A stretch of 64,000 nucleotides of DNA, taken from the NCBI GenBank assembly GCA_951406725.2, contig OX597826.1, positions 4,650,001 through 4,714,000 of the forward strand. The letters are read 5' to 3'. A program made the translations under genes and the position numbers. The stretch comes from Octopus vulgaris (taxonomy: Eukaryota). This document shows positions 31,845-35,304 of this stretch, one piece after another (the stretch's first letter is position 1; every line of letters starts with the position of its first letter). The notes under the pieces were generated by a model. It did not search any database and had not been told where the DNA came from. It was given only the letters and a program-made list of their open reading frames with translations.

Positions 31845-32051
31845 ATGTGACCTCGTGTGTACCGTTGGTGACTTTTTTTCCTCTGTCTTCCCTTCTCTGG
31901 ATCTTTCCTTCTCCTATGTTTCCGACGAAGAGCTCCGCTCGAAACGTTAAACCCTCCTTCTTCCCTTCTTTCCTGAGCGTCCAATAATACTATATTTGTT
32001 CCACGTCCTCGCGATGTTGTGTTTTTTTGTGTTTTGTTGTTTGGATTAACA
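31845..32051 (+). mobile_element. Family C, about 207-bp hammerhead-bearing element (putative Penelope-like pLTR or retrozyme monomer)
   Basis: Closely matching inverted copy at 35094-35304 with the same ends; inserted in (TA)n. Confidence 0.85.
31918..31952 (+). ncRNA. Minimal type-I hammerhead ribozyme-like motif (CCGACGA variant)
   Basis: Stem I GTTT/AAAC; CCGACGA-A; stem II GAGC-tcc-GCTC; GAAA; palindrome AACGTT; GUU triplet. Confidence 0.7.
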
Positions 32052-33327
32052 ATATATATATATATATATATATATACACACACGACTTTTTACGTGTACT
32101 ATATCCACTCACGAGGCTTTTGTCGCCTCGAAGCTATAGTGGGAGACACCTGTCCAAGGTGCCACGCAGTGATACTGAACATGGAATCATATGGTTGTGA
32201 AGCAAACTTCTTACCACACAGCCAAGCCTTCACCTATAAAGTCAACCAGTTCCCAAACCGGGAGTTGAACCCATGGCACCGGAATGAGAACCAGGAAACT
32301 TAACCAATAGACTACATGGGAAAACATACATATATATCTATATACACTCATACGCACATGTAAAAAAACACTCGAAGGATTCTCCATGTGTGGTTTATGA
32401 CCTGAAAACATGCATTTTTCTTTTTGTTATGAGCTTGGATTTTGCAAAGGAAGAAATAAATAAAACCCAATGCAAAATTTACATTCAAATATGTATCCAT
32501 AGTAACTGAAGATCCAAGTGTTTCGTAAATTAGAGCCAGGAGTAACAACACAACGTGTTAATATAGAGGTATAAATAGTTACAAGCATATCGAAATATAA
32601 TTGAACAGCATTGCATCGGAATTTGCTTTCTCCAATGAGTATTATGGAATTGCTTTATGCTGAGCCAATGCTAATTTCCTCTATTTACATTTATAAACTG
32701 GTGATGCTTTCATGTTTTAGGCATCCCGTTTACGAAACGGCCACAAGCAATGGAGTTTTATTACTGGTTACTCAGTGAGCGAAGCTGTTATATCTTACTT
32801 GATGTTGAACCGTTAAAAGAGAAACGGAAAACATTTCAAATGAACCAGATCTGCGGCATTTAAAATCGTACTTTCGGATTGTACTCTCCCACATATAGAT
32901 TGTAGTTTTTGTTCCAAAATTCTTTGAAAGCTATATTTAACTTTTGTAATTACTGAATTTCTGAGACTTTATAAAATTACAACGGTTGAATGGCGATCCA
33001 GAAGTGTATTTCAACCGACAATTTTCTTTCTTCACAATATGTCACAGTAGGTGTAAGAAGGAGAAAAATTTGCAGATTCTGGAAGAAGACATACTTTACC
33101 ATTTTGTATGCATTTAGAGACTCGTAAATACAGTTAGGAATCATTTGTGCTAAATAGCTAAACTATTTTATGTTTATAGATATACACCAACATGGTATAG
33201 CTTTTTATAACAGTGTATAACCTTGTGTAGCTGATACTTGGTCTTTTCGTCAATCAGCATATATCCATAAAATAATTCCTAAGTCACAGAAATCATTACA
33301 GGAGTTCAATATGCGCCCCATATTCAC

Positions 33328-33380
33328 TTAAAGGCCGTGCCCCAGCATGGCCATGTCCAGTGACCGAAAAAATTAGAATA
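33328..33380 (+). mobile_element. SINE family A 3' tail fragment
   Basis: aaggccgtgccccagcatggcc...tgaccgaaa. Confidence 0.55.
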
Positions 33381-34438
33381 ATTCAAACACATCTATATAG
33401 AGATAGATATATATATATGGATGTGTTTGAATTATAGACAAACGAAGATATAGATTTATATATATATATATATATATATATATATATATATATATATATA
33501 TATATATATATATATATATGTGTGTGTGTGTGTGTGTGTATATATATATATATATATATATATATATATATATTATATTATATTATATTATATTATATAG
33601 ATGTGTTTGAATTTTATACACACTCGTATGCAAACACACACGAAGTGCGTGAGAGAGTATGCATTTATATAACAACACATGCATACATATATAAATACGC
33701 ACACATATATTATATATATATTATATATATCCTATCAATTTGTTTGTCTGTCTCTGACTCTCTGTTACTCCACACTCCCTTCTCTCTGTCTTTCTCCCTC
33801 TCTCTCTCTCCGATATAATACATACACGCACGCGCGCACACATAGTTGCATATATTTCTTCTGTATTTTTGTGAAATGTCAAGGTCGGTCATGCAGAAGG
33901 TGAGTGTCCTGTCGTGGGGGGAATCATGTCGGTGATGATATGCATTTATCCAACGGAAAAGGTGCTGCCACACATTGAATTGATTGCATCATATTGGTAT
34001 TGACACGGATAAAAGGAGCGGATCGCTTCTAAGATGCCATGCCTGCATATAACATTTCACAACTTCAAAGCTTCTCTCTTGCCACTTCAAACACTCAACA
34101 CCCAAACGCACACATGTATAACTACACATATATCCATACATATTTATATACATACATGCATACATACATTCCTATATATACATATATATATATATATATA
34201 TATATACATATATGTGCACACGCTCGCAGTCACACACAGATATACAATCGTTCAGTCTGTATATCCGTTACTTGCTTGATCGATACCTACAAAATAATGA
34301 TATTGATAATAATAATAACCCAACAAATATCGATATTTGGAAGAAGAGAGAGAGAGAGAGGGAGGAAGAAAAAATAGTCCGGTTTTTATTTCAAAGATTA
34401 TTGGTCATTGATTCTATTGATTTCATAGACTGTAGTAT

Positions 34439-34838
34439 GTGTGTGTGTGTGTCTGTGTTTGTGTGTATGAGCGTGTGTGTGCACACACGCACAGATAGAG
34501 AGAAAGGGAGATGTGTTGGAAGTCTTTATGGTGTGAAAGTTTACGATGTAAGACAATTGAGAGTGATGCGTGCCGGCTTTAAACAATGTCTCATTTCCCT
34601 ATACTCATTTCACCAAAAACTGTACAATCCAATTTGCAATGTTCCTACAAGATATATATATATACACGCACACAGATACATTCATCCATGCACATATCTG
34701 TGATCGTATGTGTGTGCATATTGTCTTACATCGTAAACTTTCACACCATAAAGACTTCCAACACATCTCCCTTTCTCTCTATCTGTGCGTGTGTGCGCAC
34801 ACACACTCATACACACAAACACAGACACACACACACAC
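34439..34838. repeat. 119-bp near-perfect inverted repeat with a 162-bp spacer
   Basis: Arms at 34439-34557 and 34720-34838; two mismatches by manual comparison. Confidence 0.95.
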
Positions 34839-34844
34839 TTCAAA

Positions 34845-35003
34845 ATTTGATACTGATTAGAAGATCGAAAATCCACCTGAAGATTGTCGGTAGCAGACAT
34901 GAAACATTTGTAGTGGCGGTTTATTTAATTTATATTAAAATTTTATGTATTGATTAAGTCTTTCCTTGTTTGGTTTTAAAATAGTGGTTTTGTCTCGAAT
35001 TAT
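34845..35003 (+). mobile_element. Family D-related hammerhead-bearing element ending in (TA)n
   Basis: Contains the motif at 34873-34916; 3' end ttgtttgg...aatagtggttttgtctcgaatt resembles 6132-6168. Confidence 0.7.
34873..34916 (+). ncRNA. Minimal type-I hammerhead ribozyme-like motif
   Basis: Stem I CCAC/GTGG; CTGAAGA; stem II TGTC-ggtagca-GACA; GAAA; stem III ACA-tt-TGT; GUA triplet. Confidence 0.78.
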
Positions 35004-35093
35004 ATTATATATATATATATATATATATATATATATATATATATATATATATATATATATATATGTGTGTGTGTGTGTGTGTGTGTGTGTGTG

Positions 35094-35304
35094 TAGTTAA
35101 TCCAAACATGAAAACACAAAGAGAAAACACAACAACGCGAGGCCGTGGAACAAATATAGTATTATTGGACGCTCAGGAAGGAAGGGAAGAAGGAGGTTTT
35201 AACGTTTCGAGCGGAACTCTTCGTCGGAAACATAAGAGAAAAAAAAGATCCAGAGAAGGGAAGACAGAGGAAAAAAATCGCCAACGGTACACACGCGGTC
35301 ACAT
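35094..35304 (-). mobile_element. Family C element, second copy
   Basis: Reverse complement of 31845-32051; abuts (TA)n(TG)n. Confidence 0.85.
35196..35231 (-). ncRNA. Minimal hammerhead-like motif in family C copy 2
   Basis: Minus strand GTTT-CCGACGA-A-GAGT-tcc-GCTC-GAAA-CGTT-AAAAC; the stem II change keeps pairing as U-G. Confidence 0.65.

What the first reader, a model, noticed from the sequence alone, without database searches (positions are those of the whole stretch)
31845..35304. Family C: two same-length copies share a non-canonical CCGACGA core and a structure-preserving stem II change
Both copies carry CCGACGA instead of CUGAnGA, so the variant is probably ancestral to the family rather than decay. 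Stem II differs by C-G versus U-G, which keeps pairing. Identical boundaries imply a defined ~207-nt unit, in the size range of retrozyme monomers or solo pLTRs.
Basis: partly seen in the sequence, partly recalled or inferred. Interest (0 to 1): 0.7.

Follow-up and report, generated by a model that had tools for sequence, protein, structure and literature searches.

The report
Penelope retroelement end with variant hammerhead
These two repeats are lone end-pieces of a Penelope-type jumping gene, present in thousands of copies in what is likely an octopus genome; they carry a known kind of small hammerhead RNA motif whose one changed core letter came from the parent elements and likely weakens cutting, which is untested.

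Summary
Mostly confirmed, and largely ordinary. The copies (31845-32050 +, 35096-35304 -; 206 and 209 nt, 91% alike) are solo pseudo-LTRs of a Penelope-like retrotransposon with a Neptune-type linker: the unit lies beside the RT/GIY-YIG ORF in 19 of 20 ORF loci, and on both sides in 7. It holds a minimal type I hammerhead of the kind described for such elements. CCGACGA is the state of the source elements (4,774 exact genomic matches), not decay. It is probably not ancestral: 1,822 matches differ at that position, nearly all canonical U, about nine times the reciprocal CpG-decay control (193), and they form a more diverse subfamily. The U-G stem II change is private drift (0 of 79 other copies; copy 2 also breaks stem I). 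There are no tandem arrays, so this is not a retrozyme. Most copies start about 100 nt upstream of the predicted cut, so their templates were likely uncut. U4C is a known natural variant. The more striking point is a sister family (15,010 matches) that fixed A6U. The scan earlier noted other core variants in such elements on other DNA.

The parts
31845..32050 (+). Copy 1: solo pseudo-LTR (pLTR) of a Neptune-type Penelope-like retrotransposon, young C4 subfamily
   Evidence: the same unit flanks the ORF in full-length loci; nearest tree neighbours are C4 copies
31918..31952 (+). Minimal type I hammerhead motif: stem I 31918-31921 with 31949-31952; core CCGACGA 31922-31928; inserted A 31929; stem II 31930-31940 (4 bp, 3-nt loop); GAAA 31941-31944; palindromic ACGT in place of stem III; predicted cut after 31948
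   Evidence: sequence; features as described in PMC4209133; cleavage not tested
35096..35304 (-). Copy 2: solo pLTR, likely an independent insertion (differs from copy 1 at subfamily-marking sites 9 and 193 of the unit)
35197..35231 (-). Hammerhead motif of copy 2: core 35227-35221; U-G in stem II (35216); G-A mismatch closing stem I (35197)
32051..32075 (.). (TA)n run after the 3' end of copy 1, the family's usual insertion context
   Evidence: a TA-type run follows the 3' end in most copies
35005..35095 (.). (CA)n/(TA)n run after the 3' end of copy 2

Best explanation
The two repeats are solo pseudo-LTRs of a Penelope-like retrotransposon with a Neptune-type linker; they carry a minimal type I hammerhead motif whose C4 core letter comes from the source elements and is likely derived from a canonical U4, and they were likely made when the element's reverse transcriptase copied only the first ~200 nt of an uncut element transcript into (TA)n DNA. 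Shown: the unit flanks an RT + zinc-finger linker + GIY-YIG ORF as a direct repeat; C4 is the majority state; a U4 subfamily exists; the 3' end is fixed and the 5' end strongly modal, on either side of the predicted cut. Inferred: the 5' mode is the transcription start of an internal pLTR promoter. Inferred: the 3' end is an internal initiation site at the pLTR/5'-UTR junction, where the template continues with TTATATA and could pair with a nicked (TA)n target. Inferred: the hammerhead is a slow ribozyme that needs a dimer or the element's protein, and U4C slows it further at no cost to copying. After insertion the copies decay neutrally.
For: Walking upstream reaches a CA-rich 3' UTR and a Penelope-type ORF. 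L076 has an 816-codon open frame with weak Pfam hits to RVT_1 (E 0.0016) and GIY-YIG (E 0.0079), both under the curated cut-off. Its Atlas neighbours score 0.97-0.98 and carry RVT_1 or GIY-YIG, and it has a C-x4-C-x2-C linker. Of 20 ORF loci, 19 hold the unit, 17 downstream of the ORF and 7 on both sides; in 8 an upstream unit runs straight into a shared 5' UTR. Core counts: C4 4,774; non-C at position 4 1,822, with 97 of 100 listed being T; non-G at position 5, the reciprocal CpG control, 193. U4 copies share linked markers and are more diverse (mean pairwise 11.7% v 6.5%). A 72%-identical old copy has T there, and the sister family has U4 in 97 of 100 listed (counted by hand). 5' ends from a query of the 3' half only: 18 of 30 at -14..+1, 9 at +10..+36, 3 near the cut. 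After the 3' end, 56 of 159 continue TTTAT like the 5' UTR and 67 continue TATAT. In an anole PLE, hammerhead mutants do not affect insertion in vitro, RT starts internally and cleavage needs the protein (PMC11167929). Drosophila Penelope has an internal TATA-less promoter (PMC2377424 abstract).
Against: No transcription start, cleavage or priming site was observed here; the runs laid were contigs only. The age contrast is not firm: with equal samples, private substitutions are 2.4% (U4) v 1.7% (C4), p = 0.15, and the U4/C4 split has only 63/74 support. The subfamily markers were chosen by contrasting U4 with C4 copies, so the 22 of 22 is partly by construction, and its nearest-neighbour test favours the more densely sampled C4 group. 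No solo copy showed the 30-40 nt tail described for other PLEs. Among rare copies truncated inside the motif, 27 of 47 loci start at the AAA just after the predicted cut and 13 at the AAA before it (counted by hand), a weak hint that some templates were cut. The Pfam hits are below curated thresholds and the PDB sequence search found nothing.
Confidence: 0.75

Rival explanations
1. Same element, different origin of the solo copies: ordinary copying from the 3' end of a full or read-through transcript, with the RT stalling or joining by microhomology at the AT-rich stretch before ATGTGACC; or deletion between two pLTRs.
For: A minority of copies extend by variable lengths into the 3' UTR (2 of 75 beyond -40), as in 5' truncation. 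The modal junction is AT-rich and abuts (TA)n. Recombination or deletion was proposed for solo pLTRs in a rotifer (PMC3846280).
Against: A 5' start at a similar distance from the hammerhead recurs in U4 and C4 copies and, by eye, in the sister family, whose sequence there differs. Random truncation would not give so sharp a mode. Upstream pLTRs of full elements start at varied places, so recombination between them would not give one length.
Confidence: 0.3
2. The motif no longer cuts at all. It is kept as a fold or protein-binding site, or by drift, and core letters are free to change.
For: Two related families fixed different core changes, U4C and A6U. Both pLTRs of L161 carry a further C3U change. 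The monomer fold is not favoured: 2.7 kcal/mol above the minimum in copy 1, stem I probability about 0.07. An A6 change gave under 0.1 per min in a phage hammerhead (PMC3088659).
Against: The other core letters and both stems are the same in the two families, while position 7 and the cut-site base vary, and one stem I pair swaps G-C to C-G (one event, 12 hand-picked rows). U4C keeps enough activity for viroid infectivity (PMC3088659). Published search descriptors already allow C there (PMC13481778).
Confidence: 0.3
3. Non-LTR retrozyme monomer: a ~207-nt unit that spreads through self-cleaved circular RNA.
For: The size lies in the 150-450 bp range of retrozyme repeats (PMC7229834), and retrozymes are proposed to derive from pLTRs (10.64898/2026.07.22.740005).
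Against: No arrays: 8 of 75 loci have a second copy within 1.5 kb and only 1 is an adjacent head-to-tail pair, split by (TA)n. Copy ends lie about 100 nt from the cut on both sides. The unit is the end of an ORF-bearing element. The hammerhead is the minimal form, not the canonical one.
Confidence: 0.06
4. C4 is ancestral to the whole family and the U4 subfamily is a reversion by CpG transition in one source element.
For: C4 sits in a CpG, so C-to-U is an easy change. Scattered U4 copies occur on the C4 background (8 of 114). The root of the pLTR tree is not resolved.
Against: The U4 group is more diverse, and the most divergent copy seen and the sister family have U.
Confidence: 0.15

Closest known systems
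Minimal type I hammerheads (min-HHR) in pLTRs of metazoan Penelope-like elements (Cervera and de la Pena 2014, PMC4209133; parts 1-2 of 4 read, supplements not read)
   Same: Inserted base between positions 9 and 10.1, G10.1-C11.1 pair, palindromic 15.2-16.2 with no stem III, 4-bp helix I, location in the pLTR, thousands of dispersed single copies from truncated elements.
   Different: Position 4 is C in the majority subfamily. The parts read report a U3-A8 core variant, not U4C or A6U. Helix II is 4 bp here and 7-8 bp in their schistosome families.
Neptune/Nematis-type Penelope-like elements (Craig et al. 2021, PMC8557442; passages read)
   Same: RT with C-terminal GIY-YIG, CX2-5CxxC linker between them, pLTRs from partial tandems, insertion in microsatellites.
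   Different: Clade not fixed by a tree here. Long CA-rich 3' UTR. Solo pLTRs dominate (2 of 75 motif-picked copies extend beyond -40).
Anole Poseidon PAc (Frangieh et al. 2024, PMC11167929; parts 1-2 of 4 read)
   Same: Hammerhead in the pLTR, AT-rich targets; offers the tested model of internal initiation on uncut RNA.
   Different: Different clade. There the ORF starts inside the hammerhead and initiation is 111-118 nt into the ORF; here the 3' end of copies lies about 290 nt before the likely ORF start.
U4C natural hammerhead variant of a viroid (cited in Perreault et al. 2011, PMC3088659; passages and section 8 read)
   Same: Same core change; reported as slower in vitro but sufficient in vivo.
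   Different: There it sits in a viroid hammerhead; here in a minimal motif without stem III, fixed in thousands of genomic copies.
Metazoan non-LTR retrozymes (Cervera and de la Pena 2020, PMC7229834; passages read)
   Same: Short repeat with a type I hammerhead, similar size.
   Different: Retrozymes are tandem arrays, mostly with canonical hammerheads, and give circular RNA; none of this is seen here.

Membership tests
Penelope-like element, EN+ canonical | Single ORF with RT and C-terminal GIY-YIG endonuclease | tested here: met
   816-codon open frame in L076 with RT and GIY-YIG motifs in order; weak Pfam hits; Atlas neighbours. No copy seen is open from the start codon to the stop.
Penelope-like element, EN+ canonical | ORF flanked by direct pseudo-LTRs from partial tandems | tested here: met
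   Unit on both sides of the ORF in 7 of 20 loci; upstream unit joined to the 5' UTR in 8
Penelope-like element, EN+ canonical | Optional 30-40 nt tail at the 3' end | tested here: inconclusive
   56 of 159 ends continue TTTAT like the 5' UTR, but no solo copy carries a long tail
Penelope-like element, EN+ canonical | Retained intron in the pLTR/5' UTR (some families) | tested here: inconclusive
   No spliced joint in the pLTR in contigs of the runs laid; contigs cannot show absence
Neptune/Nematis clades | CX2-5CxxC linker between RT and EN | tested here: met
   C-x4-C-x2-C at residue 684 of the L076 frame; definition from PMC8557442
Neptune/Nematis clades | Phylogenetic placement among named clades | not tested
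   No reference sequences of the clades were on hand
Minimal type I hammerhead of PLEs | Inserted base at 9/10.1, G10.1-C11.1, palindromic 15.2-16.2, short helix I | tested here: met
   Sequence against PMC4209133
Minimal type I hammerhead of PLEs | Core CUGANGA ... GAAA | tested here: not met
   C at position 4 in both window copies and 4,774 genomic matches; met in the U4 subfamily and under the CYGANGA descriptor
Minimal type I hammerhead of PLEs | Covariation in the stems | tested here: inconclusive
   None within the family; one compensated stem I pair between sister families (1 of 8 pairs, a single event)
Minimal type I hammerhead of PLEs | Site-specific self-cleavage as a dimer or with protein | not testable with these tools
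   Needs an assay; junction excess just after the cut is weak (27 v 13 of 47 loci)
Non-LTR retrozyme | Tandem repeats of two or more hammerhead units | tested here: not met
   1 adjacent head-to-tail pair in 75 loci, no array; only 75 of thousands of loci were examined
Non-LTR retrozyme | Circular monomer RNA | tested here: inconclusive
   No go-back joint within the unit in contigs; not evidence of absence

The most novel reading that the evidence does not exclude
In these Neptune-type elements the hammerhead has been released from fast catalysis more than once: one lineage fixed U4C and its sister fixed A6U, both in the C3-U4-G5-A6 turn, while each kept the fold and made many thousands of copies. 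The element's own protein supplies what the changed letters lost, or the fold serves as a binding site, and the coexisting U4, C4 and U6 subfamilies are a natural series for testing what Penelope hammerheads are for.
Probability: 0.3. Interest if true: 0.6.

Novelty: new member of a known kind. Interest (0 to 1): 0.3.

Why it matters
The role of hammerheads in Penelope-like elements is still described as unclear (10.1101/2021.04.23.441226), and one in vitro study found cleavage unnecessary for insertion (PMC11167929). This family adds genomic evidence in the same direction: a derived, probably slower core went with a large wave of copies, and most copies span the cut. It gives matched natural variants (U4, C4 and the sister's U6) for a direct assay. 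Searches fixed on CUGANGA would miss most of these motifs. The element type, motif type and U4C change are each already known, so the interest is modest.

Tried and rejected
Rfam scan of the window: the best 150 of 305 matches listed were all microRNA families below their gathering scores, on simple repeats; no hammerhead family among those listed. Repeat finder: swamped by microsatellites. Pfam on three frame fragments of L062 found nothing; PDB sequence search found nothing. Sequencing runs: no RNA holder listed. Contigs of 7 runs guessed to be RNA were laid: deep cover of the pLTR, no joint inside it, and adapter-like loose ends that I read as mispriming (adapter identity recalled); none of this bears on expression, start site, splicing or circles. 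An intron enclosing the hammerhead was considered because of the pyrimidine tracts, and dropped: no joint was seen and the acceptor would be GAG, which I recall as rare. A switch pairing the 3' strand of stem II with a downstream stretch had probability 0.45 and 0.94 in the window copies but 0-0.13 in two U4 and three sister copies, so it is not general. The two window copies as one inverted insertion: rejected, since they are 3 kb apart, 9% different and differ at subfamily sites. No Penelope ORF remnant in the window. Literature: searches for octopus with hammerhead or Penelope terms and for U4C, A6U and the core strings showed no description of this family in the listings. Lunse et al. 2017, on hammerhead variants of Penelope-like elements, was not held (title seen in a reference list only) and may already cover such variants, as may the unread supplements of PMC4209133.

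Full report
Observation. The window holds two inverted copies of one repeat, 31845-32050 (+) and 35096-35304 (-), 91.4% identical over 220 nt. They share both ends but are 206 and 209 nt long. Each has a 4-bp stem I, the core CCGACGA, one inserted A, a 4-bp stem II with a 3-nt loop, GAAA, and a palindromic ACGT where stem III would be; the predicted cut in copy 1 is after 31948. The genome is 2.8 Gb in 227 contigs; 'octopus' is my inference from size, contig number and microsatellite content.

What the unit is. A search of G000 scored 40 of 985 candidates, all nearly full length at 95-100% identity. Two of the 30 loci fetched shared sequence upstream of the unit. A search with the longer extension gave 30 loci extending by variable lengths, up to more than 1.3 kb. 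Further upstream lie a CA-rich 3' UTR and an RT/GIY-YIG ORF. One copy keeps an 816-codon open frame with weak Pfam hits to RVT_1 and GIY-YIG, Atlas neighbours at 0.97-0.98 with the same families and a C-x4-C-x2-C linker, which marks Neptune and Nematis elements (PMC8557442). I took 20 ORF loci with flanks. The unit is present in 19, downstream of the ORF in 17 and on both sides in 7; in 8 an upstream unit runs into a shared 5' UTR. The unit is therefore the element's pLTR and the window copies are solo pLTRs. A 34-place motif pattern has 7,827 exact matches; 30 of 79 copies picked by other means match it, which suggests roughly 20,000 copies.

The core variant. The exact C4 motif has 4,774 matches, and 22 of 24 readable pLTRs beside an ORF have C4, so it is the state of the source elements. 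Non-C at position 4 has 1,822 matches, T in 97 of the 100 listed. Non-G at position 5, which CpG decay should produce about equally, has 193. The excess is a real subfamily with the canonical core and linked differences elsewhere in the unit. Its copies are more diverse, 11.7% v 6.5% mean pairwise among 24 and 25 motif-picked copies. A 72%-identical old copy has T there, and the sister family has U4. U4C is thus probably derived. Against this, private substitutions differ only 2.4% v 1.7% (p = 0.15), the split has 63/74 support, and the markers used were chosen from the contrast itself. U4C is a known natural variant, slower in vitro but sufficient for viroid infectivity (PMC3088659), and a published descriptor writes the core as CYGANGA (PMC13481778).

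The stem II change. I examined 79 near-full-length copies not picked through the hammerhead; shorter matches were dropped. That pair is C-G in 69, broken in 9, gapped in 1 and U-G in none. Over all eight pairs, 14 changes keep pairing and 25 break it. Non-CpG divergence is 2.2% inside the motif and 2.75% outside (p = 0.18) once polymorphic sites are set aside. Inserted copies decay neutrally, and the U-G pair carries no signal. The only compensated change found is between families, one stem I pair (12 hand-picked rows, one event).

How the solo copies arise. The 3' end is nearly invariant and is followed by TA-type runs. With a query of the 3' half only, 18 of 30 copies start at -14..+1, 9 at +10..+36 and 3 near the cut (one of the 30 is copy 1 itself). 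Only 2 of 75 motif-picked copies extend beyond -40. Most copies therefore span the predicted cut, so their templates were likely uncut. A pattern for copies truncated inside the motif gave 117 rows genome-wide. The 100 listed are 47 loci, 27 starting at the AAA just after the cut and 13 at the AAA before it (counted by hand; the pattern leaves more room for the first class). This is a weak hint of some cleavage in a small fraction of copies. After the 3' end, 56 of 159 copies continue TTTAT, as the 5' UTR does, and 67 continue TATAT. My reading, inferred: transcription starts in the pLTR (internal promoter shown for Drosophila Penelope, PMC2377424 abstract), the endonuclease nicks (TA)n, and reverse transcription starts at the pLTR/5'-UTR junction and runs to the RNA's 5' end, giving a fixed-length copy. 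Internal initiation on uncut RNA, protein-assisted cleavage and insensitivity to hammerhead mutants were shown for an anole element (PMC11167929). I put the identity of the unit at about 0.97, derived C4 at 0.8 and this origin of solo copies at 0.6.

Retrozyme test. Of 75 loci, 8 have a second copy within 1.5 kb and 1 is an adjacent head-to-tail pair separated by (TA)n; there is no array. Retrozymes are defined by tandem units (PMC7229834; 10.64898/2026.07.22.740005), so the family is not filed there.

A sister family. A related repeat seen in L166 has 15,010 exact pattern matches. Of 100 listed, 96 have T at position 6 in place of the conserved A, while position 7 takes all four letters (46 T, 24 A, 19 C, 11 G; counted by hand). 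Five of its 20 loci (three distinct places) hold ORF remnants up to 60% identical to the L076 protein. Two related lineages thus fixed different changes in the same turn while keeping the stems. An A6 change strongly slowed a phage hammerhead (PMC3088659). Unchecked earlier notes of this scan describe further core variants in other Penelope families of this and similar genomes; none matched this sequence.

Papers seen: PMC4209133 parts 1-2 of 4; PMC11167929 parts 1-2 of 4; 10.64898/2026.07.22.740005 part 1 of 5; PMC3088659 passages and section 8; passages of PMC6765202, PMC8557442 and its preprint, PMC13481778, PMC7229834 and PMC3846280; abstract of PMC2377424. Lunse et al. 2017 was not held, and no supplements were read; either may already list these variants.

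Verdict. A real, abundant solo pLTR with a known type of minimal hammerhead and a known core variant: a new member of a known kind, interest 0.3. The coexisting U4, C4 and U6 subfamilies are the part worth a bench test.

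Noticed in passing
L166 oriented 527-610; L208-L227; genome-wide: Sister Penelope pLTR family with A6U fixed in the hammerhead core (96 of 100 listed; 15,010 matches), position 7 free, and one stem I pair swapped relative to this family.
   Followed up: partly
L019:1263-1713: Internally deleted copy: the 5' UTR and the first codons of the ORF are joined directly to a pLTR, with no ORF body or 3' UTR.
   Followed up: partly
L161 (G000:C1:91502700-91512600): Both pLTRs of this full-length element share a further core change, C3 to U opposite G8.
   Followed up: no
window 34439-34557 and 34720-34838: A 119-nt inverted repeat, 98% identical, with a 162-nt spacer, between the two copies.
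   Followed up: no
window 33378-33435: Short imperfect palindrome, with part of it repeated near 33570-33610 across a microsatellite.
   Followed up: no
window 32076-32245; also 2056-2192, 3809-3943, 44437-44586, 52097-52232: A dispersed repeat directly after copy 1, 75-81% alike among five copies; I recall it as an octopus SINE, not checked.
   Followed up: partly
L062, minus strand, upstream of the Penelope ORF: Long frames that look like the endonuclease and RT of an unrelated LINE.
   Followed up: no
L124:1356-1591: The one adjacent head-to-tail pair of units, nearly identical and separated by about 55 nt of (TA)n; a possible natural dimer or a local duplication.
   Followed up: no
L162, L163, L165, L166, L175: A pLTR subtype with a different first 30 nt goes with the least broken ORFs and the longest CA-rich 3' UTRs; its hammerhead has the same C4 core.
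   Followed up: partly
window 34966-35047 and 6132-6212: An 83-nt match at 90% beside (TA)n, possibly the end of another microsatellite-targeting repeat.
   Followed up: no
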